This document shows, piece by piece, positions 9,513-55,309 of a DNA stretch of 64,000 bases. The DNA comes from an uncultured Myxococcales bacterium (GTDB taxonomy: Bacteria > Myxococcota > UBA727 > CAYLZW01). Every line of letters starts with the position of its first letter. The first letter of the stretch is position 1. Position numbers and translations under genes: made by a program. The notes under the pieces were generated by a model. It was not told the DNA's origin. It was given only the letters and a program-made list of their open reading frames with translations, and ran no database searches. The stretch lies in NCBI GenBank assembly GCA_964388085.1, contig CAYLZW010000002.1, positions 225 to 64,224 on the forward strand. Reading direction: 5' to 3'.

Positions 9513-9519
9513 CGCCGGC

Positions 9520-13188: not shown

Positions 13189-13202
13189 CTCGAGGTGATG
13201 CC

Positions 13203-20552: not shown

Positions 20553-20644
20553 CGTGCATGAGTAGCGCGTCCGCGGTCACGGCGTCATCGTGTCGCCCTG
20601 CAGACGGGCCAGGTGCTTCAGGTTGGTAGGCGTACCCGGCCTGC

Positions 20645-22594: not shown

Positions 22595-22612
22595 GCTGCG
22601 CAAGGAGGAGCC

Positions 22613-25165: not shown

Positions 25166-25182
25166 CGGGTCGTCCACTCGCC

Positions 25183-27531: not shown

Positions 27532-27653
27532 TCTCTCTCGACGAGCTCGTCGCTCGCGCTCGCAGGGCGGCGATCGCGGGAGCAGACGAGGAAGAAGGTG
27601 GAGGGGCGCTCGCGCTATCCCGCCTTACGGTGGGCCGCTAACAGAACCGATGA

Positions 27654-33421: not shown

Positions 33422-35890
33422 ATGCACCCTCCCCTGTTACCGACCCCGCCCCAGGGCGCGCACGAGAGCGCGCGAGGCATCTCTCGCGTGCTCTCGGGGC
33501 ACCGTCTCGCGCGCATCGGACTTCGGCGCCTCGGGCAGGCGCGCGTGGTGTCCGCGCTCTCCGAGCTGCGCGTCGTGGCGTCGTCGCACGAGGCTGCGTT
33601 CGCGGCGACGGTCGCGGCCGAGGTCGCGCGGCGGAGCGGAGACCTGCGTGGCGCTGCCGCGCTGCACAAAGACGCGGCGGAGCAGTGGCGAGAGGCCGGC
33701 AACGCGTCCCTCTCCGCCGTCGCGCTCGCGCTCAGCGTCGAGGACGCCGTGCTCTCCGGCGAGCTGCAGAGCGCGCAGGCGAACCTGCGCGACGTCGAGG
33801 CGGCCGGCGGATCGGTGCACGTCGCGAACGCGTTCTTGAGCTTCGCGCGCGGCGACACCGCGGCCGCGCGCGCGTCCTTCAAGGTGTTGATGGACGCGGC
33901 GCCCGGCGACGCGTGGGCGGCCTGCTGGGTCGACGCCTACGGAGCCGAGGTCCTCGTCGAGATGGGCGCGCTCGTCGGGGCCCAACAGGCGCTCGACAGG
34001 CTCGGCGGCAGGCTCTCCCCCGAGCACCGCTTCTCCGAGGCGTTCCTGCGACACGCCGTGCTGCGCGCCCGCCATGAGTCCTTGCGCCGCCTGACGCTCG
34101 GCGGTGATGAGGACGACGAGAAGGCCAAGCTGCACGCGCTCGTCGTACGCGCGCAGCGCTACGCCCAGGGGTTCCCGCTCTATCGCGCGTGGGCGCATCA
34201 GGTCGCGGGGGAAGAGGCGCTGCTCAACGCGGGCGACCCCGCCGCCCTCTTCGACAAGGCCATCGCGGACGCCGAGGAGGCCGGCAGCCCCTACCTGCAC
34301 GGGCGCCTATTGGCCCGTCAGGTCGAGTCGATGCGCGCCGTCCAGGAGCGGCGCTCCAACCCGCGTGCCTTGCGCGCGCGCAGCCTGCTGCTCGACTCCG
34401 GCGCGACCGGCTTCCTCGGCGCGCTGACGACGTCGAAGGGCGGCGCTCCCGAACGGATGCCCTCGCGCATGTCGATCGCGCTGCGCCTCGAGACGTCGCT
34501 CGATCAGATGAACCTGAGCGACGAGGCGGGGCTCGACGCCGTCATCGAGGTCAGCCGCCACCTCCAGAGCGTGCGCAGCCTCGACGAGCTGCTCGAGCGC
34601 ATCGTCGACTCGGTCTCGCGCGTGCTGCGCGCCGAGCGAGCCGCCCTGCTCAAGCACGACGGAAGCGAGTTCGAGTGCCTGGTCGCGCGCGGCATCGCCG
34701 CCGCCGACGTTCGCGAGGGCAACAAGGGTGTCTCGTTCGGCGTCGTGCGCGAGGCGATGCGCTCGGGAGAGCCGGTGCTGTCGGACAACGCGCTGGCCGA
34801 CGCGCGCTTCATGGATCGGGCGTCGGTGATGGCGACCGACATCCGCTCGGTGCTGTGCTCGCCCATCCGCACCAAGGACCACACCTTCGGCTTCCTCTAT
34901 CTCGACCGCCGCCTCACCGGTGTGCCGTTCTCGCCCGAGCACCTCGACCTCCTGGCCGCGTTCTCCACGCAGGTCGCGGTCGCCTGGGAGAACGCCGTGT
35001 CGTTCGAAGAGATCGCGCGCCTCAATGAGGGCCTCGAGCGGAAGGTCAGCGATCGCACCGTCGAGCTGCGCAAGAAGAACGACGAGCTGCAGACCACCCT
35101 CGACGAGCTCACCAACACGCGCCTCAAGCTGGCCGAGGCCGAGCGCGACGCGCTCGAGAAGGAGATGCAGCTCGCGCGCGACATTCAGCGTTCGATCCTG
35201 CCCCCCGAGGACACGCAGCGGCTGAGCGGCCTGTCGGTGTGCGGCCAGGTGATCCCCGCGAGCTATTGTGGCGGCGACTTCTGGGGGTACGCCGCGCTTC
35301 CCGACGGGCGCACGCTCGTCATCATCGCCGACGTCACCGGGCACGGAATGGCGTCGAGCTTGATCACCGCGGTGGCGCGCTCCTGCCTCGACACCCTGCG
35401 AGAGCAGGAGGCCATCCGCTCCGCCGCCGACGTGCTGCGCACCATGAACCAGGTCATCTTCGCGTCCGCGCACGGGAAGCTCTGCGCCACCGCGTTCGCC
35501 GGCATCTTCGATCCGGCGGCGCGGCAGCTCTCCTTCGGCAACGCCGGACACAACTTCCCGTATCTGCTCCGCGAGGGCGCCGACGCCGCGCCGCTCGTAG
35601 CAGCCGGCACCCGCCTCGGGGAGGCCGCGAACACCGACTTCGAGACGCACGTGCGAGAGATCCTGCCGGGCGATCGGCTGGTGCTGTTCACCGACGGCAT
35701 CATCGAGTGGCCGAACGCCAAGGGGAAGGACTACGGAGACCGGCGCTTCCGCAAGTCCGCGCAGGCGCGACGGGGCGAGGCGCCGGACGAATGCATCCGC
35801 GGCCTCATCGACGACGCCACGGCGTACACGGACGGCATCGAGCGTGACGACGATCTGACGCTGGTGATCGTCGACGTCGCCACCGAGTGA
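33422..35890 (+). CDS. GAF domain + PP2C-family (SpoIIE/RsbU-like) Ser/Thr phosphatase with N-terminal TPR-like region
   Basis: PP2C motifs GGDFWGY, IADVTGHGMASSL, FGNAGHNFP, LFTDGIIE, DDLTLVIVD. Preceded by a GAF-like segment (LDELLERIVDSVSRVLRAERAALL...FLYLDR) and a coiled coil. Confidence 0.85.
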   Translation: MHPPLLPTPPQGAHESARGISRVLSGHRLARIGLRRLGQARVVSALSELRVVASSHEAAFAATVAAEVARRSGDLRGAAALHKDAAEQWREAGNASLSAVALALSVEDAVLSGELQSAQANLRDVEAAGGSVHVANAFLSFARGDTAAARASFKVLMDAAPGDAWAACWVDAYGAEVLVEMGALVGAQQALDRLGGRLSPEHRFSEAFLRHAVLRARHESLRRLTLGGDEDDEKAKLHALVVRAQRYAQGFPLYRAWAHQVAGEEALLNAGDPAALFDKAIADAEEAGSPYLHGRLLARQVESMRAVQERRSNPRALRARSLLLDSGATGFLGALTTSKGGAPERMPSRMSIALRLETSLDQMNLSDEAGLDAVIEVSRHLQSVRSLDELLERIVDSVSRVLRAERAALLKHDGSEFECLVARGIAAADVREGNKGVSFGVVREAMRSGEPVLSDNALADARFMDRASVMATDIRSVLCSPIRTKDHTFGFLYLDRRLTGVPFSPEHLDLLAAFSTQVAVAWENAVSFEEIARLNEGLERKVSDRTVELRKKNDELQTTLDELTNTRLKLAEAERDALEKEMQLARDIQRSILPPEDTQRLSGLSVCGQVIPASYCGGDFWGYAALPDGRTLVIIADVTGHGMASSLITAVARSCLDTLREQEAIRSAADVLRTMNQVIFASAHGKLCATAFAGIFDPAARQLSFGNAGHNFPYLLREGADAAPLVAAGTRLGEAANTDFETHVREILPGDRLVLFTDGIIEWPNAKGKDYGDRRFRKSAQARRGEAPDECIRGLIDDATAYTDGIERDDDLTLVIVDVATE

Positions 35891-38332: not shown

Positions 38333-39316
38333 TCAGCGTGCCAGGAAGACGTTGAACGACTTTGGGCGCTCCGAGAAGTCGCGATAGCGGCCGCGGATGT
38401 CGATGACGCCGATGAGCTCGGTCCGCCGGCCGGGGTGCACGTTGATGATGAACTGGGAGAGCGTCTCGAAGAGATAGTAGAGCCCGAGCCCCGCCCCGCC
38501 CTCCTTGTCGTCCACCTGATCGCTCCCCTTGCGGAAGCACTTGCCGAGATAGGCGACGACCGTCTCCGTGGCGAGCGATCCGAAGGGGTCGCGCACCGAG
38601 ATGCCGAGCTTGCGGCCGTCGGTGCAGAAGACGGCCTCCACCGACTTCCCGGCGGCGAGCTCTACCTCTTCGGTGCGGCTCAGGTGCGCGAAGCAACGCT
38701 CGCCGGCGTCGTTCGTGGGCGCGTTGTAGATGGCGTTGGTGATGAGCTCATCGGCCGCGCTCTGAAACAGCTCCACGAAGCGCGCTTGGGCACCCTTGCG
38801 CGTGGCGAAGGCGGCGGCGGCCCGGATGGCGGCGAAGCGATCGGAGGCGCGCGAGAGCGTGAGTCGCTCGTGCTCCGCGCCCCAGGGGAAGTACTTCTCG
38901 AGGCCGAAGATGTCGTCGCGCAGGATCTTCTGCACCGTGACCAGCAGCTCGTCGCCGTCGAGGTCACCGCTGCGCGCCAATAGGTGCGTAAGCGTGTGGC
39001 GCGCGAACAGCCCGGCCAGCTCGGTGCGCTGCGCTCCGCCCATGAAGAGCACGAAGCGCCCCGCGTCCTGCTGCCGCGCGAAGCGCTCGAAGATCGCGTC
39101 CCGCGCGCCTTCTTCGATCGCTTCATAGTCGACGACGACGAGATCGGCGTCGTCTGCCGCGACCTCGTCGGGCGTCGCTACGATCCGTACGTCGTCGACG
39201 ACGGCGCGGGCGATGCGTCCCAGGTCGCGCAGCGACGTCTTGTCCCCGACGAGAAACACGCGCTGCGCGGCACCCGGCCGCGCCTGTGGCGACGGAGCGT
39301 CGTCGGGCCGGTTCAT
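38333..39316 (-). CDS. Receiver-like domain + GHKL (RsbW/SpoIIAB-like) ATPase, paralog 2
   Basis: N-box ADELITNAIYNAP, G1 DPFGSL, G2 GGAGLGL. N-terminal CheY-like segment (ADLVVVDYEAI). Start MNRPDD overlaps the upstream stop (ATGA). Paralog of 45395..46360. Confidence 0.7.
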   Translation of the reverse strand: MNRPDDAPSPQARPGAAQRVFLVGDKTSLRDLGRIARAVVDDVRIVATPDEVAADDADLVVVDYEAIEEGARDAIFERFARQQDAGRFVLFMGGAQRTELAGLFARHTLTHLLARSGDLDGDELLVTVQKILRDDIFGLEKYFPWGAEHERLTLSRASDRFAAIRAAAAFATRKGAQARFVELFQSAADELITNAIYNAPTNDAGERCFAHLSRTEEVELAAGKSVEAVFCTDGRKLGISVRDPFGSLATETVVAYLGKCFRKGSDQVDDKEGGAGLGLYYLFETLSQFIINVHPGRRTELIGVIDIRGRYRDFSERPKSFNVFLAR

Positions 39317-40401
39317 GCGGGAGTCAGATCCGCGGCGGAGCGGTCCGGCGCGGCGCTGGGCGCGCGCTCTTCGCAGACGCGTACGCGCCAACCGATGCGA
39401 CCATCCACGCGCCCTTCGTCGAGCGACTCCCGTTCCACGATCTGCACCTCGACGGCGCCCATCACCCGGGGCGAGAGGATGTCGAGCGACAAGATGTCAC
39501 CCACGTCATACGGCACGAAGAACGCCCTCCGCGGCACGAGCAAGGCGCCCGCCTGCAGGTCGCCTCGCAGCAGGAAGAAGTCGACGCGCGTGCCGTGGCG
39601 CGCGCGCACGCGGATCTGGCCAGGCGAAGCCTCCGAGCGCTTCGTCGTCGCTGGCCTCACGCGCATCACGTTCGTGTCGCGCACGAAGCGGGTGATGGCC
39701 GCCCGTGCCGGGGCCGACACCGCGACGAACTCCACGCCCATGCGTATGCGCTCGGCGCCGGTCGGGCCCGTGAAGCGCTCGCGCCAACGAACGCGCGCGT
39801 TCAGCTCCGCCGCCTGCTCGAAGACATTGATCTCGAAGGTCAGCCCCTCGAGCTCTTCGTGCTCGAGGCCGCACTCGATCATCGCGCCGCAGGCGCTGAT
39901 GTTCACCAGCTCGCCCTCGAACTGAAGGCCGGACTGGCCGCTGATCTCGTCGTTGACGGCGGCGCGCTCGGCGAGCCGGTGCAGCGTCACGTTCGGCAGC
40001 ATCGCCAGGCGCCGCATGAGCTGTCCGAACGCTCCCTCCGGCCAGACGAACACCTGGCGCAGGCCGAGCTTCGCGGCGCGTCGCGTCGAGCCCGCGCTGC
40101 GCGTCGACGAGCACGCGATGAACACGGCGGAGTCCGGTGTTTCGGCGCAGCGTTCGGCCACGTGCGCCCAGATCTTCTCCGGCGCGTTGCTGCCGATGGC
40201 GAGGTCGACGAGCACGAACGCTTTGCCCTTCGCCCCGTCGATCGCCTCGCACACAGCCCGAACGGAGCGGGCGCGCACCACGTCGATGCCCGCGCGAGCG
40301 AGCAGCTCGCGCTTGCCGTCATCGAGCGAGAGGCGATGCAGCACCACGCGCCCGTGGCCGCCCCGCTCCCCCTCTTCACGTTCGCCCGCGGTCGACGTCA
40401 T
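39313..40401 (-). CDS. Response-regulator receiver + PilZ-domain protein
   Basis: Receiver-like AFVLVDLAIG...KLGLRQVFVWP. PilZ motifs RLAERAAVNDE (RxxxR) and NISACGAM (D/NxSxGG-like). The second C-terminal beta-barrel may be a degenerate PilZ. Confidence 0.65.
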   Translation of the reverse strand: MTSTAGEREEGERGGHGRVVLHRLSLDDGKRELLARAGIDVVRARSVRAVCEAIDGAKGKAFVLVDLAIGSNAPEKIWAHVAERCAETPDSAVFIACSSTRSAGSTRRAAKLGLRQVFVWPEGAFGQLMRRLAMLPNVTLHRLAERAAVNDEISGQSGLQFEGELVNISACGAMIECGLEHEELEGLTFEINVFEQAAELNARVRWRERFTGPTGAERIRMGVEFVAVSAPARAAITRFVRDTNVMRVRPATTKRSEASPGQIRVRARHGTRVDFFLLRGDLQAGALLVPRRAFFVPYDVGDILSLDILSPRVMGAVEVQIVERESLDEGRVDGRIGWRVRVCEERAPSAAPDRSAADLTPA

Positions 40402-40513
40402 TGCGCTCCGGCACGAGACCTTCGTTCAGGCATCTTTCCGCGCGCGCCGCGCGGAAGCAAAGCGAGACACGCGAGCGATGGCGCCGGCGGGGCATGTGGG
40501 CGTCGTGCGCACA

Positions 40514-42760
40514 TCACCCGCGGGGCGGCTTCTTTCGCTTCGGCGCCTTTGCCGGTGCGGCCGCCTCAGCGGTCTGTCGGAGCGCGCCGTGAAGGGTGAT
40601 GCCGCCGTCGATGGAGATGGTCGAGTGCGTGGGCGTCAGAAGCGGCAGGTCCATGGCGCCCGACTCGTGGGAGCGCGCGGCGAGCGCCTCGAGCCACTGC
40701 GAGAGATGAGCGGCCGTGGCCACGCGAGCGATCGCGACCAGCGTCGCCTCGAGCTCAAGCTGCAGCGCTCTCGCCGACGAGAAGCGCGCGTCCGGCTCGC
40801 GGCTCACGCAGCGCGCGATGATGTCGTCCAGCGCGCCCGGCACATCGGGGCGCACGGAACGGACCGAGGGCACCGGCTCGTTCAGCACCGCGAACATCGA
40901 CATGTACTCGCTGTCGCGGCGGAACAGCGGCGTGCCGGTCAGCATCTCCCACAGCACCACGCCGACGGCCCAGAGGTCCGTGCGCCGATCGACGTCACCG
41001 CGCGCGGGGTCGATCTGCTCCGGCGCCATATAGATGACCTTGCCCTTCAGGTTCCCCGCGCGCGTCTCGAGCAGCGAGTGCGCCACCTTGGAGACGCCGA
41101 AGTCCGTGAGCTTCACGGCGCCGTTCAGGGACAACAGGACATTGTGCGGCGAGACGTCGCGGTGGACCAGCTCCAGCACCCTGCCGTCGTCATCGGCGCA
41201 GCTGTGCGCCGCGTGCAGGCCGGCACAGATATCGGACGCGATGCGACACGCCAGCTCGACGGGCAGCGCCACGTCCAGGTGCTGCGCGGCGCTGATGACC
41301 GAGCGCAGGTCCCAGCCGTCGACGAGCTCCATGGCGATGAAGTAGCCGTCGTCGTCTTGGCCGAGATCGAAGATCTGCACGACGTTCGGGTGCGTGATGG
41401 CCGCCGCCACACGCGCCTCTTGCAGGAAGAGCTGAGAGAAGTGTTCGTTGGCTGCCAGCTCCGGCAGGATTCGCTTGAGCGCGACCTGCTTGACGAAGCC
41501 CTCGGGCCCCCGCTGCTTGGCGACGGAGACCTCCGCCATACCGCCGCGCCCGAGCGGTCGGACGGCCTCGTAGCGGGTGAGCGCGGAGCCGCTCAGCGTC
41601 CCCGTCGAGGGCGGCGCGCTCGCCGGCACACGGACGGCGCCGACGTCGGGCAGCGCTTCGCCGGGATGCGCTGCCAGGTAGGACATCACCGCGCTCGGCA
41701 CGCGCTCGGCGAACAGGTCGAGGACCTCCGTGGCCCCAGCGGCGCTGTCGACCGGCCATGGGGCGCCGCACGCGGGACAATTCGCGCGTGGCTCGCCGGC
41801 GTGCACAGGAGAACGATCCGTGGACGACCTCGCGAGCAACGCCTTCATCGCGATCGCGTCTAGCTCCAGGGTGACGAGCTTCGCACAGCTCGCGCACGAC
41901 GACGACAGCAGCACGGTGGCGACGCGTCCCGCGAGCGCCGCCTGCAGCGGAGCGTTGCCCGTGTCCAGCAACGAGAGCGGGACCCTCGCCCAATACACGT
42001 CCGCGTCCGCGCTCTCTGCGACGTCGAGCAGCCTGCTGCTGCCAGCGTCGTCGACGCTGGTGACGCCCGCCAGCACCACGAGCACGATCCCCTCGAACCC
42101 GTCCGCGAGGCGCCGGAGTCGCGCCTTCGACGACACGCAGCCCTGAAGCCACAGGGAGGTGACGAGGCCGGTCACCTCCTTTTGGGCACGAAAGGGAGCG
42201 GGCCGAGGCGACGTCGCCGCGCCGAGCGCGACGTCGACCAGCGCGTTCAGCGCCGACGGCAACGGCGGTGAGCCCTGCGTGCGCGCGAACGACAGGTAGG
42301 CCTCGGGCACGTCGTCGAGCTCGGCCTCGGCGCCACAGCGATGACAGCGCGCCACGGGGAGCGGCGCGCTCGGCTGCAGCACGCTCTTGCCCGGCGGCGT
42401 CCGCAGGTCCACGAGGAGGTCGGTCTCGACGTCGCACGCCTCACACACGTAGGGCAGATAGAAGCTGACGAGCGCGGCGCCTCCGGCGAAGCCGCCCACC
42501 ATATTGAGCTGCGCCACGATCGCGGGGCGCGCGTGGATGATGCAGGCGTGCTCTACGTCGAGCGCGCCCATGGCGGAGACCCATTCGCGCACGCCAAACG
42601 ACGTGATGCGCCTCACCCCGTCGAGGTCGAAGACGACGAGGCCCGCCAGATCGCGCAGGTCCGCTCGCTGGAAGCTGGCGTCGAGCTCCCCCGCGATGTG
42701 GACGAGCGTGCCTCCCGGCAGCTTGCGCTTGTCGATGCGCAGCGTCTGGCTCGGCGCCAT
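40514..42760 (-). CDS. 2x(STAS + zinc ribbon) - Hanks Ser/Thr kinase, paralog C
   Basis: Start MAPSQTLRIDK. STAS-1 VVFDLDGVRRITSFGVREWV + VCEACD...CHRCGAE. STAS-2 with SCASCAK...CPACGAP. Kinase motifs GRGGMAEV, VALKRI, HRDVSPHN, DFGVSK, YMAPEQ. Confidence 0.85.
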   Translation of the reverse strand: MAPSQTLRIDKRKLPGGTLVHIAGELDASFQRADLRDLAGLVVFDLDGVRRITSFGVREWVSAMGALDVEHACIIHARPAIVAQLNMVGGFAGGAALVSFYLPYVCEACDVETDLLVDLRTPPGKSVLQPSAPLPVARCHRCGAEAELDDVPEAYLSFARTQGSPPLPSALNALVDVALGAATSPRPAPFRAQKEVTGLVTSLWLQGCVSSKARLRRLADGFEGIVLVVLAGVTSVDDAGSSRLLDVAESADADVYWARVPLSLLDTGNAPLQAALAGRVATVLLSSSCASCAKLVTLELDAIAMKALLARSSTDRSPVHAGEPRANCPACGAPWPVDSAAGATEVLDLFAERVPSAVMSYLAAHPGEALPDVGAVRVPASAPPSTGTLSGSALTRYEAVRPLGRGGMAEVSVAKQRGPEGFVKQVALKRILPELAANEHFSQLFLQEARVAAAITHPNVVQIFDLGQDDDGYFIAMELVDGWDLRSVISAAQHLDVALPVELACRIASDICAGLHAAHSCADDDGRVLELVHRDVSPHNVLLSLNGAVKLTDFGVSKVAHSLLETRAGNLKGKVIYMAPEQIDPARGDVDRRTDLWAVGVVLWEMLTGTPLFRRDSEYMSMFAVLNEPVPSVRSVRPDVPGALDDIIARCVSREPDARFSSARALQLELEATLVAIARVATAAHLSQWLEALAARSHESGAMDLPLLTPTHSTISIDGGITLHGALRQTAEAAAPAKAPKRKKPPRG

Positions 42761-42762
42761 CG

Positions 42763-43254
42763 TCAAGTGGAGGTACGTCCCGCCGACTCGTCGACGAAGG
42801 CGAGATACGACTCCGGCGTGTCGTCGAGCTGCATCTCGCCGCCGCACTCCGGACAGGGGGCGCACTCGTCGAGCGTCGGTCGTCGCCCCGGCTGCAGCTC
42901 GAGGGGGAGCGTACGCTCGTCGTCACACGCCTCACAGAAATAGGGCACGAGGATCGACGTCACCGCGGCGTCCCCCCGCATGGTCGCGATCATGCTGAGC
43001 TGCCGGACCATGACGGGCGAGCAGCGCTCGAGCTCGACCTTGGTGGCTTTGCTCGATAGGCGCTGCAGAAAGCCGATCCACTCGCGCACGCCACAGGAGT
43101 TGATGCGTTGGACCTCGGACAGGTTCAGCACCACGCGCTCTGTCGCCGCCGCGACGACACCCGAGAAGTCGGCCTCTTCCGTGATCTCGCCCCTCATGAC
43201 GAATCGATGGGTCGCGCCGCTCTCCTCGAGGCTCCAGGTCAGACCGTCGGTCAC
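42763..43254 (-). CDS. Standalone STAS + zinc-ribbon protein (paralog of 13203..13709)
   Basis: VVLNLSEVQRINSCGVREWI...VELERCSPVMVRQLSMI; FCEACDDE...CPECGGEM. GTG start overlapping the kinase B stop (GTGA). 2 nt before the kinase C ATG. Confidence 0.75.
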   Translation of the reverse strand: MTDGLTWSLEESGATHRFVMRGEITEEADFSGVVAAATERVVLNLSEVQRINSCGVREWIGFLQRLSSKATKVELERCSPVMVRQLSMIATMRGDAAVTSILVPYFCEACDDERTLPLELQPGRRPTLDECAPCPECGGEMQLDDTPESYLAFVDESAGRTST

Positions 43255-45395
43255 GGGACCTCCTCATCCGGTATGGACATCGTCACCTCCGGCCAGGCGT
43301 CGACCTCCGTCTGGGTCCGGTCGAAACCACGCTCTTCCTCGTCGTTCGGGAGGAGCGCGCCGTGCGGGGGCGTGAAGTCCAGGCGACGGATCTCCCCCTC
43401 AGCGTATCCCTGTCTCGCCAGCCCGTGCAGCCAGTGCGCCAGGTGTGCCGAGCTGGCCGGTTGGCCGATGTCGAGGAGCACGCGCTCGAGCGCGAGGTGG
43501 AGGTGGCGCGCCGTCTCGAAGCGATCCGTCGGCAAGCGCGCCGTCGCGCGACGGATGACGTCGACCAGCGACGGGGGAACGTCCGGCCGCTTCTCCTCGA
43601 TGGGCGGGATGTCAGCTTCGAGCGCGGCCCGCATGGAGGCCAGCTCTTCGTTGCGCCACAGCGCCGGGACGCCGGTGAGACACTCGTGCAGCACCAGGCC
43701 GGCGGCGAACACATCGACGCGGCGGTCCACCGCGCCGAGGGTGCCGTCGAGCTGCTCGGGAGAGATGTAGATGACCTTGCCGCGCACCGTGCCCGGCCGG
43801 GTGCCGAGGTTCGCGCCGGCCGGCTTGGAGATGCCGAAGTCGGTCACCTTGACGCCGCCTTGCACCGAGATGAGCACGTTGTCCGGCGAGACGTCTCGGT
43901 GAATGATCTCGAGGCGTCGGCCGTCCTCGCCGCGCGCCGAATGGGCGGCGTGCAGCCCGGCGGCGACGTCGCTGACGACGCGGCAGCACAGCTCGATGGG
44001 GAACGACCGCTTGAGCCGGCGGGCGTAGCGCAGCACGCTGCGCAGGTCCCACCCGCGCACGTACTCCATGGCGATGAAGTAGTCCGCGCCCTCTTGTCCG
44101 AGGTCGTGGATCTGCACCACGTTCGGGTGGGAGATGCGAGCGGAGAGGCGCGCCTCCCGCAGGAACATCTCGGAGAGCTCCGGATCGCGCGTGAGCTCGG
44201 GCAGCACGCGTTTGACGACGACGCGCTTCTTGAACCCGCCGGGACCGAGCACCTCGGCGAGCAGGACCTCGGCCATGCCGCCTCGCCCGATGCGGCGCAC
44301 GATGCGGTAGCGCTCACCGATGCGCCCGGGTGCGCGCGCGGAAGCGGTGTCCTTCGGCTCGACGGGGGTCGGCTCGCCGCCGGGTCGATCGCGGAGATAG
44401 TCGGCGAGCTCGATCGGTGACTCGCCCGCCAGCAGGTCCTTCAACGTCGCCAGCATGTCCGCGGTCAGCCACTCGGCGGCGCGTCCACCGCCGTCGACTC
44501 GAGCGATCTCCTGCGCGAGGATGCGCGCGTCGAACTCGAGCGTCTTCCGATGTGGCGGCGTCAGCAGCGCCGAGAGCACGCGACCGCGAAACGCCCGTAC
44601 GCCCGCGGGTGGCAACGACTGCAGCAGAGCGAGCGAGACGCGCGCGAAGTACGCGTTGGTGCGCTCCGCCAGCTCTCGCAAGCGTTCGGCGCCGAGCTCG
44701 TCCATACCGGTGACACCCGCGCAGATGACGACGACGTGCCCCTCGAGCCCATCGAGCAGGCGCTTGGTGCGCAGGCGGCGATCGATGTGCCCGCCGATCC
44801 ACAGCGCGGTGACGTCACCCTCGACCTCTTTGCGCAGCTGAAAGCTCGACGAGGGCGTCGCGCCCTCGAGCAAGCCGAGCAGACGGCTGACGGCGCGCGG
44901 CGGCGACGGCTCCGGCGCCGAGGACACGAACGAGAGATACGAGGAGGCGATGTCGTCGAGCTCCGCCGGCTCTTTGCAGCGCGGACAGGGCAGCGGTCTC
45001 GGCCCCCCGCGTCGAAGGGCGAGCACTGCCTCCTTCGCGCTCATCAGCACCTGCTGCTCGTGATCGCAGTGCTCGCAGATGTACGGCAGGTACAGGCTCA
45101 GCACCTCGCCACGCCCCACGAAGCCCGCCACCATGTTGAGCTGCGCGACGATGGCAGGGCGACAGCGGATGAGCCCGAGGAAGGAGGCGTCGATCGACTC
45201 GAGCGCGGCGATCCACTCGGGCACGCCGTAGCTCGTGACGCGCGTGACGCCGTCGAGATCGAGCACCACGGCGCCCTGCAGGTGGTCGAGCTTGTCGCGC
45301 GGGAAGCCCGCGCCGATGGTGCCGCTCAACGTCACCAGCGACACGCCGGGCGCCGGCGAGCTGACGATCGCTTCGAGTGAGGCGGGCGCCGTCAT
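43251..45395 (-). CDS. 2x(STAS + zinc ribbon) - Hanks Ser/Thr kinase, paralog B
   Basis: Start MTAPASLEAIV (TGATG overlap with the upstream stop). VVLDLDGVTRVTSYGVPEWI + ICEHCDHE...CPRCKEP. Kinase motifs GRGGMAEV, VVVKRV, HRDVSPDN, DFGISK, YISPEQ. Confidence 0.85.
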   Translation of the reverse strand: MTAPASLEAIVSSPAPGVSLVTLSGTIGAGFPRDKLDHLQGAVVLDLDGVTRVTSYGVPEWIAALESIDASFLGLIRCRPAIVAQLNMVAGFVGRGEVLSLYLPYICEHCDHEQQVLMSAKEAVLALRRGGPRPLPCPRCKEPAELDDIASSYLSFVSSAPEPSPPRAVSRLLGLLEGATPSSSFQLRKEVEGDVTALWIGGHIDRRLRTKRLLDGLEGHVVVICAGVTGMDELGAERLRELAERTNAYFARVSLALLQSLPPAGVRAFRGRVLSALLTPPHRKTLEFDARILAQEIARVDGGGRAAEWLTADMLATLKDLLAGESPIELADYLRDRPGGEPTPVEPKDTASARAPGRIGERYRIVRRIGRGGMAEVLLAEVLGPGGFKKRVVVKRVLPELTRDPELSEMFLREARLSARISHPNVVQIHDLGQEGADYFIAMEYVRGWDLRSVLRYARRLKRSFPIELCCRVVSDVAAGLHAAHSARGEDGRRLEIIHRDVSPDNVLISVQGGVKVTDFGISKPAGANLGTRPGTVRGKVIYISPEQLDGTLGAVDRRVDVFAAGLVLHECLTGVPALWRNEELASMRAALEADIPPIEEKRPDVPPSLVDVIRRATARLPTDRFETARHLHLALERVLLDIGQPASSAHLAHWLHGLARQGYAEGEIRRLDFTPPHGALLPNDEEERGFDRTQTEVDAWPEVTMSIPDEEVP

Positions 45396-46360
45396 CAACC
45401 GGCCACGAAGACGTTGAAAGACTTCGGGCGCTCCGCGAAGTCGCGAAAGCGGCCGCGGATGTCGATGAGGCCGATCATCTCGGTGCGCCGTCGGGCGTCG
45501 ATGTTGACGACGAGCTGGGAGCAAGACTCGTACACCGTGAACAGGCCGAGGCCGGCGCCGCCGGAGCGATCGCTTATCTGATCGTCTCCCCGACGGAAGC
45601 AGCGGCCCAGGTAGTCGACGATCGTGTTCGCGCCGAGGGAGCCGAAGGGGTCGCTGACCGCGCAGCCAAGCGTGCGCCCGTCCGACGAGAGCACCACCTC
45701 GATGCCCTCGCCGCGCTGCAACGACACAGGCTCCCCCCGCTTCAGGTGGGAGAAGCGCTCGGCGCCGTGCTCGTCGATGGGCGCGTTGTAGATGGCGTTC
45801 GTCGTCAGCTCGTCGACCACCGTACAGAAGAGCTCCACCATGCGGCTCTGCGTGCCGAGGGCCTCCGCCAGCGCGCGCGCCTGCTCGCGGATCGCGTCGC
45901 GCCCGCCGCTGTTGTCGAGCGTGAAGCGCAGGTGCGAGGCGCCCCAGGGGAAGTACTTCTCGATGCCGAAGATCTCGTCACGCAGGATCTTCTGCACCGT
46001 GATGAGCAGCTCCTGCCCGTCGACCTCCTCGTGGCGGCCGAGCATGTTGCGCACGCCGAGCTCGCCGAACAGCACCGACAGAGCCTCCGGCCGGCGCACC
46101 GCCGAGCACAGCACGAGGCGTCCACGGTCGCGCTCTGCACAGAAGCGCTGAACGGACCGGGCCCGCTCCTGATCGTCGAGAGCGTCGTAGTTCAACAGTA
46201 CGAGGTCGAAGGCGCGCGCGGGAGCGTCCTCGACGCGCTCCACGGTGTCGACGTGAGGCACGATGGAGCGCAGCACGCGGGCCACCGAGCGCGCGTGCTG
46301 CTTGTCCGCATCTACCAGGAGCCCGGACAGCGCGCCGGGTTCCTCGGGGCTCGGCGGCAT
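45395..46360 (-). CDS. Receiver-like domain + GHKL (RsbW/SpoIIAB-like) ATPase, paralog 1
   Basis: Start MPPSPEEPG, 2 nt after the kinase A stop. VDELTTNAIYNAP (N-box), DPFGSL, GGAGLGL. The receiver-like N-terminus has Asn at the usual phospho-Asp position (LVLLNYD). Confidence 0.7.
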   Translation of the reverse strand: MPPSPEEPGALSGLLVDADKQHARSVARVLRSIVPHVDTVERVEDAPARAFDLVLLNYDALDDQERARSVQRFCAERDRGRLVLCSAVRRPEALSVLFGELGVRNMLGRHEEVDGQELLITVQKILRDEIFGIEKYFPWGASHLRFTLDNSGGRDAIREQARALAEALGTQSRMVELFCTVVDELTTNAIYNAPIDEHGAERFSHLKRGEPVSLQRGEGIEVVLSSDGRTLGCAVSDPFGSLGANTIVDYLGRCFRRGDDQISDRSGGAGLGLFTVYESCSQLVVNIDARRRTEMIGLIDIRGRFRDFAERPKSFNVFVAG

Positions 46361-46362
46361 GG

Positions 46363-48567
46363 CTACTCCAGCTCCGTGTCGTGCTTGCGGACGCGGGTGT
46401 GGAGGCTCGCCACCGCCCGGGCGCGCGCGCTGCCGTCGATGGTGTCGGTGGCGTCGAGGCCGCCGGTCTCGTGCGTGGGCGTCAGCAGCGGCGCGGACAG
46501 CTCGCCGCCCTCGAGCGCCTTCTCGACGAGACCCTCGAGCCACTGCGCGAGGTGGGCCGACGTCGCGGCGCGGCCCATCCCCATGAGGGCCGTCTCGAGG
46601 CCGAGCTGCAGATCGCGAGCGCTGCGGAAGCGCTCGTCGTGCTCGCGCCGCAGGGCCTGCTCCACGAGCTGCTCGAGCGAGCGCGGGCAATCGGCGCGCC
46701 GCTCGCGCACGCGGGGGATGGCCGCGTTCAACACGGCGTGCATGGAGCTGTACTCACTGTCGCGACGAAAGAGCGGCTCCCCGACGAGGATCTCCCAGAG
46801 CACGAGCCCGGTCGCGAACACGTCGCTGCGCGCGTCCACCGGCCCGAGCTGTCCGTTGATCTGCTCCGGCGCCATGTAGACGACCTTGCCCTTCAGTTGC
46901 CCCGAGCGCGTCTGGAAGAACGAGTTCGCCACCTTCGAGACGCCGAAGTCCGTCAGCTTCACGGCGCCCGCGTTCGAGAGGAGGATGTTGTGCGGGCTCA
47001 CGTCCCGGTGGACGATGCCGAGCGCGTTCCCCTCTTCGTCGGTGCAGGTGTGCGCGGCGTGGAGCCCCGCGCAGATGTCACTCGCGATGCGACAAGCGAG
47101 CTCGATGGGCACGCGCTGCTCGAGGCGACGAGCGGCCGTCAGCACGGTGCGCAGGTCCCAGCCCTTCACGTACTCCATGGCGATGAAGTAGGCGTCGCCT
47201 TCCTGGCCGAGCTCGAAGATCTGCACGACGTTCGGGTGGGTGATGGCGGCGGCGACGCGCGCCTCCTGCAACAACATCCCCGAGAACTGCTGGTGACGTG
47301 CGAACTCCGGCAGGATCTTCTTCAGCGCTACGCGCTTGACGAAGCCTTGTGGGCCACGCTGCGTCGCCAGGAACACCTCGGCCATGCCGCCGCGCCCGAG
47401 CAGGCGCACGCTCTCGTACTTCGAGAGCAGGGACTGGGTCTCGACCCGAGGGTTCGAGCCGCTGCTGGCCGTGCTGACCTCCGACGTCGACACGCCCGCG
47501 AGCGCGACGCCGGGGTGCGCGTCGAGGTACGCCTTGACGTCGAGCGGGATGGCGGGCGCCATCAACGCCAGCGCGCGCTGGACGCTCTCCGCGCGATCGG
47601 TGCGCAACACGGCGCTGCCGCACACCGCGCAGCCCAGCGCACCCCCGCCGACGTGCGCCTTCAACGTGCCGGCGTCGAGCTCGACGTCGATCGGTCCGCA
47701 TTTGCCGCACGACGCGCGCACGAGGACGGTGGCGACGCGCCCCTTCGCGCGGGCGAGCGCGCTCTCATCCAGCATCCCGGCCACGCGGAGCGGCAGGCGC
47801 GCGAGATAGACCTCGGCGCCGCCGATGTGCATCAGCTCGTCGAGGCGGCGCTCGCCCCCGGGCGCGATCTCGGTGATGCCCGCCAGCACGGCCACGACCA
47901 CGCCCTCGAGGCCGTCGACGAGGCGCTTGAAGCGGGACTTCTTGTCGATGGCGCCCTGCAGCCAGAAGCCGGTGACCTTGCCGTGCACCTCTTTCTGAAC
48001 GGCGAGCTGCGCCGGTGCGTGCGCGGGCGCCTTCCCGAGCGCGCGATCGACGATTCCCTCCAGCTCACGCGCGAGCTTTGGCGGACGCTGGCTCGAGACG
48101 AACGAAAAGTACGCCTCGGGCGAGTCGTCGAACTCGGCCTCCTCGCCGCAAGCCTCGCAGCGGTGCACGGGCGCTTCGCCGCGCGCCACGTGCTCGTCGT
48201 CGTGACGCAGGTCGATCAGCACCTCGCTCTCGTGATCGCAGTGCTCGCAGAGGTACGGCAGGTACATGCTGACCAGCGCGCCGTTCCCGGCGAACCCGGC
48301 CACCATGTTGAACTGCGAGACCAGCGCCGGCCGCGCGTTCACGAAGCAGTAGACGTCGGCCGCGAGGCTCCGGAGGGCGGCGACCCATTCGCGTACGCCG
48401 AAGGACGTAATGCGCCGAACCCCGTCGAGATCGACGACGACCGCGCCGGCGAGCCCGTCGACCATCGCCCGGCTGGCGAAGTCCGCGTCGATCTCGCCGG
48501 AGAGGCGCACGATGGCACCTCCCGGGACGGCGAGCTTGTCGATGCGAAGCTGTGGATCTTTCGGCAT
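46363..48567 (-). CDS. 2x(STAS + zinc ribbon) - Hanks Ser/Thr kinase, paralog A
   Basis: VVVDLDGVRRITSFGVREWV + LCEHCDHE...CEACGEE; second module with SCGKCGP...CAVCGS. Kinase motifs GRGGMAEV, VALKKI, HRDVSPHN, DFGVSK, YMAPEQ. Start taken at the ATG (MPKDPQLRIDK) rather than the TTG at 48591. Confidence 0.85.
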   Translation of the reverse strand: MPKDPQLRIDKLAVPGGAIVRLSGEIDADFASRAMVDGLAGAVVVDLDGVRRITSFGVREWVAALRSLAADVYCFVNARPALVSQFNMVAGFAGNGALVSMYLPYLCEHCDHESEVLIDLRHDDEHVARGEAPVHRCEACGEEAEFDDSPEAYFSFVSSQRPPKLARELEGIVDRALGKAPAHAPAQLAVQKEVHGKVTGFWLQGAIDKKSRFKRLVDGLEGVVVAVLAGITEIAPGGERRLDELMHIGGAEVYLARLPLRVAGMLDESALARAKGRVATVLVRASCGKCGPIDVELDAGTLKAHVGGGALGCAVCGSAVLRTDRAESVQRALALMAPAIPLDVKAYLDAHPGVALAGVSTSEVSTASSGSNPRVETQSLLSKYESVRLLGRGGMAEVFLATQRGPQGFVKRVALKKILPEFARHQQFSGMLLQEARVAAAITHPNVVQIFELGQEGDAYFIAMEYVKGWDLRTVLTAARRLEQRVPIELACRIASDICAGLHAAHTCTDEEGNALGIVHRDVSPHNILLSNAGAVKLTDFGVSKVANSFFQTRSGQLKGKVVYMAPEQINGQLGPVDARSDVFATGLVLWEILVGEPLFRRDSEYSSMHAVLNAAIPRVRERRADCPRSLEQLVEQALRREHDERFRSARDLQLGLETALMGMGRAATSAHLAQWLEGLVEKALEGGELSAPLLTPTHETGGLDATDTIDGSARARAVASLHTRVRKHDTELE

Positions 48568-48845
48568 CTGTTTGGACGTCGACGGGGGCAACGAAGCGGC
48601 GCTTCATCCTCGCCTCCCCCCGTATCGTTGTCCAGGCGACCGCGTCGGGGTGAGACACGCGCACCGGCACCGGACGGCAGTGCGAGCGTTCCCCACAGCC
48701 GTTCCGCCACAGCGCGACAGGTTGCCCCCGTCGGCGAGCCGGGCCGTGAGCGTGCATGCCGTGCCAGGCGCCCGCGGAGCACGCAGCGGCTGGCGCGGTG
48801 TCTGCTTCGTTTGCGCTCACGTCATCACGACGCCGGGAGCCGCTC

Positions 48846-54766: not shown

Positions 54767-55152
54767 CGAAGGGGAGCACCGGAACGACGCGCTGGGTGAT
54801 CCCCGAGGGGTACATCCCGGGCGAGAGCCACGGACCGGCGCCGGCGATGACGAGCCACGAGACCGCGTGCATGTTGAACACGGGGGACCAAGATGCACAC
54901 GTCGAGATCTGGATCTATTTCCACGACCGCGCGCCCGCTGGTCCCTTCGTCGTCGTCGTGCCCGCCGAGCGCACGCTACACCTGCGCTTCAACGACCTGC
55001 GCGAGCCCGAGGCGATCCCGAAGGAGACCGACTATGCGTCGCTGATCCTCTCGGACGTCCCCATCGTCGTGCAGCACACGCGCCTCGACTCGCGCCAAGC
55101 GGAGCTATCGCTGCTCTCGACGATGGCCTTCCCCGACGAGCGCACGCCCTAG
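54763..55152 (+). CDS. ASRT-family (sensory-rhodopsin-transducer-like) small beta-sandwich protein
   Basis: 129 aa, with segments (AEGYIP, SHET.C.LN.GD.DAHVEI.IY, P.R.T.H.RFNDL, VPIVVQHTRLDSRQAE) that I recall as conserved in the ASRT family (memory-based, not checked against a database). ATGA overlap with the upstream stop. Confidence 0.5.
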   Translation: MTKGSTGTTRWVIPEGYIPGESHGPAPAMTSHETACMLNTGDQDAHVEIWIYFHDRAPAGPFVVVVPAERTLHLRFNDLREPEAIPKETDYASLILSDVPIVVQHTRLDSRQAELSLLSTMAFPDERTP

Positions 55153-55309
55153 ACGGGCCGAGCGCCGCAAGCGGTGCGTCCGTCTCATCCCCTGCCGCCG
55201 CGGCCTACGAAGTAGCGCCCGTCCCTCGAGTCCTGACAAGATCGGCAAGCTCGGGGGTCGCAGGCGATAGCGCTCGCGACGTCGCCGACGGAAGGGCACG
55301 CGTCGGGGG

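What the first reader, a model, noticed from the sequence alone, without database searches (positions are those of the whole stretch)
38333..48591. Seven-gene operon wiring STAS partner-switch domains directly onto eukaryotic-like Ser/Thr kinases
On the minus strand, 48567 to 38333 encodes seven genes:
- kinase A
- GHKL-1
- kinase B
- STAS-Zn
- kinase C
- REC-PilZ
- GHKL-2

Each large protein is 2x(STAS + C4 zinc ribbon) + Hanks kinase. The STAS domains keep the SpoIIAA/RsbV phospho-acceptor position (RITSFG, RVTSYG, RISSFG). The small proteins are RsbW/SpoIIAB-type GHKL ATPases, whose canonical substrates are STAS serines.

So STAS antagonists, RsbW-like kinases and Hanks kinases are encoded in one translationally coupled unit, with an RsbU-like PP2C 5 kb away. 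No sigma factor is present.

The output is therefore probably kinase activity rather than sigma release. I do not recognise this as a described architecture.
Basis: partly seen in the sequence, partly recalled or inferred. Interest (0 to 1): 0.85.

Follow-up and report, generated by a model that had tools for sequence, protein, structure and literature searches.

The report
STAS-zinc-ribbon Hanks kinases with RsbW-like partners
A myxobacterial gene cluster fuses "anti-sigma antagonist" (STAS) switch domains to three eukaryotic-like protein kinases and interleaves them with RsbW-type serine kinases, so a classic bacterial on/off switch probably connects to protein kinases rather than to a sigma factor; the module is widespread but uncharacterised.

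Summary
The mechanism is untested.**

- **Genes.** Seven minus-strand genes (48567→38333) form two translationally coupled blocks: kinA-G1-kinB-S-kinC and RP-G2.
- **Phospho-serine.** Module 1 keeps an almost invariant Ser (131/133 fused, 54/54 standalone) at the SpoIIAA/RsbV phospho-site. Module 2 is a homologous copy without it.
- **Corrections.**
  - kinB lacks the second zinc ribbon.
  - "RISSFG" belongs to another gene at 13.3 kb.
  - A receiver domain in RP is unconfirmed.
- **Synteny.** In other Myxococcota, 52/78 G1 homologues are followed directly by a standalone STAS-Zn gene. STAS-kinases and PP2Cs are often adjacent.
- **No sigma factor** was detected in the 64 kb window.
- **Prior art.** I found only a passing 2010 note on STAS-kinase fusions in Sorangium.

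I rate it a new variant of partner switching.

The parts
46363..48567 (-). kinA: STAS-Zn module 1 (about 48076-48555), degenerate STAS-Zn module 2 (about 47584-48009), Hanks kinase domain (about 46591-47427)
45395..46360 (-). G1: receiver-like domain (Asn at the phospho-acceptor position) plus RsbW/SpoIIAB-type GHKL Ser-kinase domain
43251..45395 (-). kinB: STAS-Zn module 1, module 2 without zinc-ribbon cysteines, Hanks kinase domain
   Evidence: Pfam Pkinase E 1.3e-31. HMM hits: mod1 E 1.6e-54, a shorter mod2 hit E 2.9e-29, kin E 5.6e-119. Only two CxxC pairs, at 107 and 137. Motif RVTSYG. 47% identical to kinA and kinC.
42763..43254 (-). S: standalone STAS-Zn protein, the RsbV/SpoIIAA-like candidate antagonist
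   Evidence: Pfam STAS E 3.2e-4, 20.9 bits against a cut-off of 22.6. mod1 HMM E 5.5e-34. Motif RINSCG with the Ser retained. The Ser is invariant in 54/54 standalone homologues. Exact product is in the public collection.
40514..42760 (-). kinC: STAS-Zn module 1, STAS-Zn module 2, Hanks kinase domain
   Evidence: Pfam Pkinase E 6.9e-39. HMM hits: mod1 E 1e-53, mod2 E 2.1e-37, kin E 6.7e-121. Four CxxC pairs. Motif RITSFG. 54.6% identical to kinA.
39313..40401 (-). RP: PilZ-domain protein with RLAER and NISACG motifs; its N-terminal 140 residues are unassigned
   Evidence: Pfam PilZ E 3e-9, above the cut-off. The RxxxR and NxSxxG motifs were read directly from the translation. No receiver support: no Pfam hit at E<=0.1, no PDB sequence hit, and hhalign against the G1-family receiver gives probability 0.2%. 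RP was not found beside G1 homologues elsewhere.
38333..39316 (-). G2: second receiver-like plus RsbW-type GHKL protein (Asp at the receiver acceptor position), overlapping RP by ATGA
   Evidence: 48.7% identical to G1. g1 HMM E 5e-126. Pfam HATPase_c_2 E 1.1e-3. Receiver column 57 is Asp.
33422..35890 (+).
   Evidence: Pfam SpoIIE E 2.4e-40 and GAF E 1e-17. A PP2C lies within 10 kb of 27/87 G1 homologues, and 12/87 have a Pkinase...SpoIIE giant protein nearby. PP2C also recurs in the metagenome loci.

Best explanation
This is an expanded, Myxococcota-type partner-switching module. Its STAS 'antagonist' fold carries an appended C4 zinc ribbon. That fold occurs as a free protein (S) and as the first of two tandem N-terminal modules on three paralogous Hanks-type kinases (kinA, kinB, kinC).

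**Shown here**
- The folds of the STAS-Zn modules and of the GHKL proteins.
- Conservation of the serine and of the GHKL catalytic residues.
- The gene order in the window and its synteny in other genomes.
- The absence of a detectable sigma factor in the window.

**Inferred mechanism**
1. The receiver-like/RsbW-type GHKL proteins (G1, G2) bind unphosphorylated STAS-Zn modules.
2. They phosphorylate the invariant serine (Ser55 in kinA).
3. A PP2C removes the phosphate. The GAF-SpoIIE enzyme 2.4 kb away is the local candidate.
4. Free STAS-Zn and kinase-borne STAS-Zn keep the same recognition motif (I-[TN]-S-[FYC]-G-V-R-E-W). They would therefore compete for the same GHKL.
5. The GHKL's occupancy or phosphorylation of the kinase's own STAS module sets Hanks-kinase activity. 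The readout is then protein phosphorylation, not sigma release.
6. The PilZ protein RP, coupled to G2, may feed in c-di-GMP in this lineage.
For: **Folds**

**Sequence**
- A profile of the STAS portion finds mainly STAS proteins in the PDB (eight of ten matches; the two weakest are PknG). The conserved Ser aligns with their D/S-S Ser.
- STAS or STAS_2 is hit by 11 of 29 family members, and HATPase_c_2 by 21 of 38.

**Conservation**
- Ser55 is present in 131/133 fused modules and 54/54 standalone proteins.
- The first-ribbon cysteines are nearly invariant.
- The GHKL N, G1 and G2 boxes are invariant.

**Synteny**
- 52/78 G1 homologues are followed directly by a standalone STAS-Zn gene.
- 13/80 are preceded directly by a STAS-STAS-kinase gene.
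- A PP2C lies within 10 kb of 27/87.
- Independent metagenome loci repeat the order pp2c / STAS-STAS / kinase-STAS-STAS / GHKL.

**Other**
- Operon coupling is tight.
- No sigma-factor domain was found in the 64 kb window.
- Enzyme outputs of partner switches have precedents: SiaABCD (SiaB and SiaC also appear) and the Anabaena HenR module.
Against:
- Most G1-STAS-Zn pairs (about 85%) have no STAS-fused kinase directly next to them. The conserved core may therefore work without such kinases and have another target.
- The receiver-like domain of G1/G2 and its conserved linker (DIFGIEKYFxWG) are unexplained and could be the true output surface.
- G2 has no STAS-Zn gene of its own.
- The PP2C is on the opposite strand behind an unrelated lipase gene.
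- The Hanks kinases replace the catalytic-loop Lys with Ser (HRDVSPxN; Ser/Thr in 120 of 123 aligned members). Their catalytic competence is uncertain.
- A sigma factor could be encoded elsewhere in the genome.
Confidence: 0.5

Rival explanations
1. The flow runs the other way. The Hanks kinases are inputs that phosphorylate STAS-Zn modules, their own or protein S. This controls how much RsbW-like GHKL is free to act on a separate target, which could be bound through the GHKL's receiver-like domain or be a distal sigma factor.
For: - M. tuberculosis PknD phosphorylates the STAS protein Rv0516c, and PknB and PknE phosphorylate other sigma regulators (Greenstein 2007, PMC1847690).
- The conserved core across genomes is GHKL plus standalone STAS-Zn. 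Hanks kinases of several architectures lie nearby: STAS-fused, Pkinase-AAA16, and Pkinase...SpoIIE giants.
- Fused modules keep a Thr-Ser dyad (Thr in 32/33), whereas standalone proteins mostly have Asn-Ser (Asn in 39/54).
Against: - The GHKL keeps every residue needed for its own kinase activity, so it does not look like a passive partner.
- PknD modifies a non-canonical N-terminal Thr rather than the consensus Ser.
- The Hanks catalytic loop lacks the usual Lys.
- No alternative target gene is conserved next to the pair.
Confidence: 0.22
2. It is a canonical anti-sigma system whose sigma factor is encoded elsewhere. G1 and G2 are anti-sigma factors, S is the antagonist, and the STAS modules on the kinases are decoys or modulators.
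For: - The best structural matches of the GHKL domain are true anti-sigma factors: SpoIIAB, RsbW and UsfX.
- S is a typical single-domain antagonist apart from its zinc ribbon.
- A 64 kb window cannot exclude a distal sigma gene.
Against: - No sigma-factor domain was found in the window.
- The neighbourhood screen used only six purpose-built HMMs and no sigma-factor model, so sigma genes in the 80 genome and 43 metagenome loci were not screened. What recurs beside the pair is kinases and PP2Cs.
- The GHKL carries an extra N-terminal domain absent from RsbW and SpoIIAB.
Confidence: 0.12
3. It is a stressosome-like scaffold. The many STAS modules (seven in this operon) assemble into a multimeric hub that sequesters the GHKL kinases, as RsbR and RsbS sequester RsbT. 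The Hanks domains would project outward as effectors or sensors.
For: - The operon encodes multiple STAS paralogues and two GHKL kinases.
- The tandem STAS duplication is clear: hhalign probability 99.5%.
Against: - Domain order is reversed relative to RsbR: here STAS is N-terminal with the effector C-terminal.
- Most related loci carry a single GHKL-STAS pair rather than a multi-STAS set.
- The GHKL resembles SpoIIAB and RsbW best.
- No oligomer evidence is available.
Confidence: 0.08
4. It is an anti-phage defence kinase system.
For: The kinase domains match PADLOC PD-T4-6, mad6, Stk2 and MkoA models, with E down to 4e-71, and NCBIfam MADS6.
Against: - All matches cover only the generic kinase domain.
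- G1, G2, S and RP have no PADLOC hit.
- The flanking genes are metabolic and envelope genes, not a defence island or mobile element.
- The module is vertically widespread in Myxococcota.
Confidence: 0.03

Closest known systems
RsbV-RsbW-RsbU / SpoIIAA-SpoIIAB-SpoIIE partner switching (Bacillus)
   Same: - A STAS antagonist with the phospho-Ser at the equivalent loop.
- A GHKL Ser-kinase whose best structural matches are SpoIIAB and RsbW.
- A SpoIIE-family PP2C nearby.
- Kinase and antagonist genes adjacent.
   Different: - No sigma factor is present.
- STAS carries a C4 zinc ribbon.
- STAS is also fused in tandem to Hanks kinases.
- The GHKL has an extra N-terminal receiver-like domain and a conserved linker.
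- The gene order is kinase then STAS.
SiaABCD (P. aeruginosa) and the Anabaena HenR module: partner-switch-like systems with an enzyme as output
   Same: - The same logic of PP2C, HATPase-type Ser/Thr kinase and STAS-like protein controlling an enzyme rather than a sigma factor (PMC9239204; PMC13555669).
   Different: - The outputs there are a diguanylate cyclase or a glycosyltransferase, as separate proteins.
- Here the candidate output, a Hanks kinase, is covalently fused to the STAS module.
- SiaC is a DUF1987-type fold, not a STAS-Zn module.
SypE-SypA (Vibrio fischeri) and HsbR-HsbA (Pseudomonas): receiver-containing RsbW-like kinases
   Same: A receiver domain is combined with an RsbW-type Ser kinase that acts on a single-domain STAS protein (SypE/SypA: PMC10120452; HsbR is from my own knowledge).
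   Different: - SypE and HsbR also contain a PP2C domain and a phosphorylatable receiver.
- G1 and G2 have no PP2C domain.
- The receiver acceptor in the G1 family is degenerate: Asp 15, Asn 13, His 7 of 38, and G1 itself has Asn.
M. tuberculosis PknD-Rv0516c cross-talk and the Rv1364c multidomain regulator
   Same: - A link between Hanks kinases and STAS proteins (PMC1847690).
   Different: - In M. tuberculosis the Hanks kinase and the STAS protein are separate proteins, and the site is a non-canonical Thr2.
- Rv1364c contains no Hanks kinase.
STAS (COG1366) fused to eukaryotic-like kinases in Sorangium cellulosum (Treuner-Lange 2010)
   Same: This is very probably the same protein family. 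[quoted passage not shown]
   Different: - That paper gives only a one-sentence genomic remark.
- It does not describe the zinc ribbon, the tandem duplication, the Ser conservation, the cognate receiver-GHKL family, the synteny, or any experiment.

Membership tests
Partner-switching system (RsbV/RsbW/RsbU type) | STAS-fold antagonist with a conserved phosphorylatable Ser in the beta3-alpha2 loop | tested here: met
- The family Ser aligns with their Ser.
- Ser is present in 131/133 fused modules and 54/54 standalone proteins.
- Module 2 does not meet this feature.
Partner-switching system (RsbV/RsbW/RsbU type) | RsbW/SpoIIAB-type GHKL Ser-kinase with N, G1 and G2 boxes and no HisKA domain | tested here: met
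- Invariant E184, N188, D237, G240 and G268-G272.
- HATPase_c_2 hit in 21/38 members.
- No HisKA hit.
Partner-switching system (RsbV/RsbW/RsbU type) | Cognate PP2C/SpoIIE phosphatase genetically linked | tested here: inconclusive
   - A GAF-SpoIIE gene lies 2.4 kb away on the opposite strand, behind a lipase gene.
- A PP2C lies within 10 kb of 27/87 homologous loci and recurs in metagenome loci.
- The linkage is real but not universal, and cognate specificity is untested.
Partner-switching system (RsbV/RsbW/RsbU type) | A sigma factor as the sequestered target | tested here: not met
   - No sigma-factor Pfam domain in any main ORF of the 64 kb window.
- Four ORFs had no Pfam hit at all.
- A distal sigma gene cannot be excluded.
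Partner-switching system (RsbV/RsbW/RsbU type) | Mutually exclusive binding, and phosphorylation of the STAS Ser by the GHKL kinase | not testable with these tools
   This needs biochemistry or complex modelling.
Hanks-type (eukaryotic-like) Ser/Thr protein kinase, PF00069 | Pkinase profile above the gathering score, plus the Gly-loop, VAxK Lys, HRD Asp, DFG and APE motifs | tested here: met
   - Pkinase 110-136 bits against a cut-off of 31.7.
- GRGGMAEV, VALK/VVVK, DFG and APE/SPE are present.
- HRD is present.
Hanks-type (eukaryotic-like) Ser/Thr protein kinase, PF00069 | Catalytic-loop Lys (HRDxKxxN) typical of Ser/Thr-specific kinases | tested here: not met
   - kinA and kinC have HRDVSPHN and kinB has HRDVSPDN.
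- In the family the position is Ser in 109 and Thr in 11 of 123 aligned members, and never Lys.
- The consequence for activity is unknown.
Response-regulator receiver (REC) domain: N-terminus of G1 and G2 | CheY-like fold | tested here: met
   - Profile against the PDB: receivers at E 2.7e-4.
Response-regulator receiver (REC) domain: N-terminus of G1 and G2 | Phospho-acceptor Asp with conserved Thr/Ser and Lys | tested here: not met
   - Acceptor column: Asp 15, Asn 13, His 7 of 38. G1 has Asn and G2 has Asp.
- The Lys-equivalent column has Lys in only 10/38 (Arg in G1 and G2); G2 has Met at the Thr/Ser position.
- The domain is a degenerate or pseudo-receiver in much of the family.
PilZ c-di-GMP receptor (RP) | PilZ profile, plus the RxxxR and (D/N)xSxxG motifs | tested here: met
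   - PF07238 scores 37.6 bits against a cut-off of 22.5.
- RLAER and NISACG were read in the translation.
- Actual c-di-GMP binding is untested.
   - No Pfam hit at E<=0.1.
- No PDB sequence hit.
- hhalign against the G1-family profile gives probability 0.2%.
- No structure model was possible.
Stressosome (RsbR/RsbS/RsbT) | RsbR-type architecture (N-terminal sensor, C-terminal STAS) and a higher-order STAS core | tested here: not met
   - The architecture is reversed here, with STAS N-terminal.
- Oligomeric state is not testable with these tools.
Anti-phage kinase systems (PD-T4-6, Stk2, MADS) | System-specific components beyond a generic kinase domain | tested here: not met
   PADLOC hits cover only the kinase domains. 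G1, G2, S and RP have none.

The most novel reading that the evidence does not exclude
A previously unrecognised signalling design would join the two unrelated bacterial Ser/Thr-kinase types, the GHKL 'stas-kinases' and the Hanks kinases, into one switch.

- An RsbW-like kinase reads and writes the phospho-state of a zinc-ribbon STAS module built into the Hanks kinase itself.
- A free STAS-Zn protein and a PP2C act as competitor and reset.
- In effect, this would be a partner-switch-gated kinase cascade.
- It is specific to, and widespread in, Myxococcota: about 2,900 clusters at 50% identity carry the STAS-Zn module.
- Both the STAS-Zn module and the receiver-GHKL family are largely missed by current Pfam and NCBIfam models.
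Probability: 0.45. Interest if true: 0.8.

Novelty: new variant of a known kind. Interest (0 to 1): 0.62.

Why it matters
Myxobacteria carry the largest bacterial kinomes. How their hundreds of Hanks kinases are controlled is largely unknown.

- **A concrete mechanism.** If STAS-Zn modules are GHKL-operated switches on these kinases, a large kinase subfamily gains a testable regulatory mechanism. I found 652 clusters at E<=1e-20 and 277 representative clusters at E<=1e-30 for the N-terminus alone.
- **A new link between systems.** Partner switching and Hanks-kinase signalling have been treated as separate systems that share only PP2C phosphatases (PMC9239204). This module would connect them directly.
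- **An annotation gap.**
  - Pfam labels these proteins only as 'protein kinase'.
  - The G1 family usually has no domain call at all.
  - New profile models for STAS-Zn and for the receiver-GHKL family would re-annotate thousands of proteins.

Tried and rejected
- **Word-indexed homologue search with the kinA N-terminus** returned nothing, not even the protein itself. I replaced it with the exhaustive HMMER search.
Narrower alignments A3 and A5 worked.
- **The afdb50 fold library was unavailable**. I could not list cultured organisms or UniProt entries with this fold.
- **Source organism.** Only short Logan contigs from runs SRR11843817, SRR11843821 and SRR11843830 were recovered, and the kinC look-up found no record. 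The nearest homologues are Polyangiales, Myxococcales and 'Deltaproteobacteria' MAGs.
- **Promoter and terminator scan** was uninformative at 70% GC: 0 promoters, and 2 terminator-like sites against 2.8 expected.
- **A receiver domain in RP** got no support from Pfam, PDB phmmer or hhalign. I left it open.
- **The anti-phage reading** was rejected because PADLOC hits are generic kinase-domain matches only.
- **Sequence-only PDB searches were weak.**
  - The G1 profile found only the receiver half.
  - The whole N-terminal profile was swamped by C2H2 zinc-finger matches caused by Cys spacing. I treated these as artefacts.
  - Trimming to the STAS portion fixed this.
- **Literature.** No paper contains 'HRDVSP'. 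The 2008 myxobacterial kinome paper is not held.
Full report
**1. What is in the sequence**

The window is about 70% G+C, so most long ORFs are spurious. Codon-position G+C picks out one coherent set of minus-strand genes between 38.3 and 48.6 kb. Start-codon and junction inspection gives:

| Gene | Coordinates | Length |
|---|---|---|
| kinA | 48567-46363 | 734 aa |
| G1 | 46360-45395 | 321 aa |
| kinB | 45395-43251 | 714 aa |
| S | 43254-42763 | 163 aa |
| kinC | 42760-40514 | 748 aa |
| RP | 40401-39313 | 362 aa |
| G2 | 39316-38333 | 327 aa |

- The junctions are: 2-nt gap, TGATG overlap, GTGA overlap, 2-nt gap, 112-nt gap, ATGA overlap. That makes a five-gene coupled block and a two-gene coupled block.
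- Six of the seven products occur letter-for-letter in the public protein collection.
- The database call for kinA (715 aa, P0261) starts at GTG 48510 and removes the first STAS strand. Homologues align from residue 5-7 of my 734-aa version, so ATG 48567 fits better.
- Upstream is a 190-nt divergent region facing a TPP-enzyme gene.
- Downstream, after 150 nt, is a secreted GDSL lipase gene with Asp-rich repeats. Beyond it, on the other strand, is a GAF-SpoIIE PP2C.

**2. Domain assignments**

- **Pfam.** Pkinase is unambiguous in kinA, kinB and kinC, and PilZ in RP. STAS and HATPase hits are all below the curated thresholds, and NCBIfam adds nothing specific.
- **G1.**
  - About 105 homologous clusters exist, almost all unannotated.
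  - An AlphaFold model built on 38 of them is confident (pLDDT 93.0, pTM 0.91).
  - A sequence profile also finds receivers (E 2.7e-4).
  - Invariant residues E184, N188, D237, G240, G268, A269, G270 and G272 correspond to the N, G1 and G2 boxes.
  - 21 of 38 members hit HATPase_c_2 individually.
  - The receiver is degenerate. The acceptor column is Asp 15, Asn 13, His 7 of 38. G1 has Asn and G2 has Asp.
- **Kinase N-terminus.**
  - An exhaustive HMMER search finds 2,943 representative clusters at E<=1e-3 and 277 at E<=1e-30. Most of the best 150 listed are about 700 aa, that is, the same fused architecture.
  - A model of kinA 1-358 is confident (pLDDT 91.6).
  - A profile of the STAS portion hits mainly STAS proteins in the PDB (TM1442 at E 0.016; the two weakest of ten matches are PknG). 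It aligns the family's invariant Ser with the Ser of their D/S-S-x-G loop, which by my own knowledge is the position of SpoIIAA Ser58.
  - STAS or STAS_2 is hit by 11 of 29 members, and Zn_ribbon_8 by 15 of 29.

**3. Anatomy of the STAS-Zn module**

- Each module is a STAS fold followed by a CxxC...CxxC ribbon.
- Modules 1 and 2 are homologous: hhalign probability 99.5%, E 9e-23.
- Only module 1 keeps the D-L-x-x-V-x-R-I-T-S-F-G-V-R-E-W motif. Ser55 is present in 131/133 and Gly57 in 132/133. The first-ribbon cysteines are nearly invariant, and the second-ribbon cysteines are about 90-95% conserved.
- Module 2 has no conserved residue at the Ser position. In kinA it is Pro.
- kinB has lost the second ribbon.
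- Standalone STAS-Zn proteins keep the Ser in 54/54 cases but mostly read I-N-S. Fused modules read I-T-S in 32/33.

**4. Comparative genomics**

In 80 GTDB species loci, nearly all Myxococcota MAGs (Polyangiaceae, Kofleriaceae, Haliangiales, Nannocystineae and others), I scanned six-frame ORFs with family HMMs.

- 52 of 78 G1 homologues with room downstream are followed directly by a standalone STAS-Zn gene.
- 13 of 80 are preceded directly by a STAS-STAS-kinase gene.
- A PP2C lies within 10 kb in 27 of 87.
- 12 of 87 sit beside a Pkinase...SpoIIE giant of about 1,670 aa; in L002 its architecture is Pkinase-AAA16-GAF-SpoIIE.
- A Hanks kinase of some kind is within 10 kb in 40 of 87.

Loci fetched independently through the STAS motif from metagenomes repeat the theme.

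- Recurrent orders are pp2c / STAS-STAS / kinase-STAS-STAS / GHKL, or STAS-STAS-kinase / GHKL / STAS-Zn.
- By my reading of that table, a GHKL gene follows about 9 of 15 kinase-fused genes that have enough downstream sequence.

The conserved core is therefore GHKL plus STAS-Zn. PP2C and Hanks kinases are frequent companions. This window is an expanded version with three paralogous kinases (47-55% identical), plus a lineage-specific PilZ-GHKL pair that was not found elsewhere.

**5. Mechanism**

- **Shown:** the folds, the catalytic-residue and Ser conservation, the coupling, the synteny, and the lack of a sigma-factor domain in any main ORF of the window.
- **Inferred:**
  - The GHKL binds and phosphorylates the STAS Ser, and a PP2C reverses this.
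  - Free and kinase-borne STAS-Zn modules share the recognition motif, so they would compete for the GHKL.
  - GHKL engagement with the kinase's own module 1 would then gate the Hanks domain.
- **Precedents:** enzyme outputs of partner switches are known for SiaABCD and the Anabaena HenR module.
- **Main rival:** flow in the opposite direction, with Hanks kinases phosphorylating STAS, as PknD does to Rv0516c.
- **Other rivals:** a distal sigma factor, a stressosome-like assembly and anti-phage defence. All three are less likely. PADLOC hits are generic kinase matches only.
- **Caveat:** the whole fused-kinase family has HRDVSPxN. The catalytic-loop Lys is replaced by Ser or Thr in 120 of 123 aligned members and is never Lys. 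I found no literature on this, so catalytic competence is an open question.

**6. Novelty**

- Database names are just 'serine/threonine protein kinase'. A few JGI entries add 'anti-anti-sigma regulatory factor'. Pfam pre-computation sees only the kinase domain.
- G1 homologues mostly have no domain call.
- A 2022 survey treats GHKL 'stas_STYKs' and Hanks 'eSTYKs' as separate systems (PMC9239204).
- The library searched is incomplete, and the 2008 myxobacterial kinome paper is not held.
- I rate this a new variant of a known kind (partner switching). It includes two unmodelled protein families, STAS-Zn and receiver-GHKL.

**7. Verdict**

The architecture and the absence of a local sigma factor hold. 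The 'kinase output' claim is plausible but untested.
- Interest is 0.62.

Noticed in passing
window 9415-13709 (+): A second standalone STAS-Zn gene lies at 13203-13709. It carries the motif RISSFG at 13359 and scores mod1 HMM E 1e-35 and Pfam STAS_2 E 1.6e-5. It directly follows a 1257-aa Pkinase-AAA_16 protein (9415-13188) and has no GHKL gene beside it. The STAS-Zn module therefore also pairs with a different kinase architecture in this genome.
   Followed up: partly
window 46591-47427, 43479-44315, 40745-41578 (kinase domains); also 55310-57733: All STAS-fused Hanks kinases have HRDVSPxN in place of HRDxKxxN. The position is Ser or Thr in 120 of 123 aligned family members and never Lys. 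The unfused kinase at 55310-57733 shares this (HRDVSPDN), while the kinase at 677-2458 is canonical (HRDLKPEN). No paper contains 'HRDVSP'.
   Followed up: partly
window 54715-57733 (+): An Anabaena-sensory-rhodopsin-transducer (ASRT, PF07100, E 1.4e-52) protein is encoded at 54715-55152, immediately upstream of a Hanks kinase at 55310-57733. This is an unusual pairing, and no rhodopsin gene was seen nearby.
   Followed up: no
window 20630-27624: A YcaO cyclodehydratase gene (25183-27624, minus strand) lies next to genes with PqqD, peptidase M50 and HlyD-type domains (20630-25165). This looks like a RiPP biosynthesis and export cluster.
   Followed up: no
window 35904-38183 (-): A secreted GDSL-type lipase/acylhydrolase with Asp-rich calcium-binding-like repeats and a run of about 22 prolines sits between the operon and the PP2C gene. 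It is on the same strand as the operon, 150 nt downstream of G2.
   Followed up: no
L002, L015-L018, L021, L031, L037, L042, L049, L050, L056: Many GHKL-STAS-Zn pairs sit next to a kinase-PP2C giant protein of about 1,670 aa; in L002 the architecture is Pkinase-AAA16-GAF-SpoIIE. In this window that architecture appears split into Pkinase-AAA16 (9.4 kb) and GAF-SpoIIE (33.4 kb).
   Followed up: partly
L101, L106, L108, L111, L112, L120, L121 (metagenome loci): A permuted architecture exists, with the Hanks kinase N-terminal and the two STAS-Zn modules C-terminal. It is usually preceded by a kinase-less STAS-STAS protein and often followed by the GHKL gene.
   Followed up: no
window 48510-48567 (-): The public gene call for kinA (P0261, 715 aa) starts at GTG 48510 and truncates the first STAS beta-strand. 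ATG 48567 matches the homologue alignments better.
   Followed up: yes
window 45395-46360 and 38333-39316 (-), residues about 121-140: A strongly conserved linker motif, T-x-Q-K-x-L-x-x-D-I-F-G-I-E-K-Y-F-x-W-G, lies between the receiver-like and GHKL domains of G1 and G2. T121, K124, F131, G132, Y136 and G140 are nearly invariant. It has no counterpart known to me in RsbW or SpoIIAB, and its function is unexplained.
   Followed up: no
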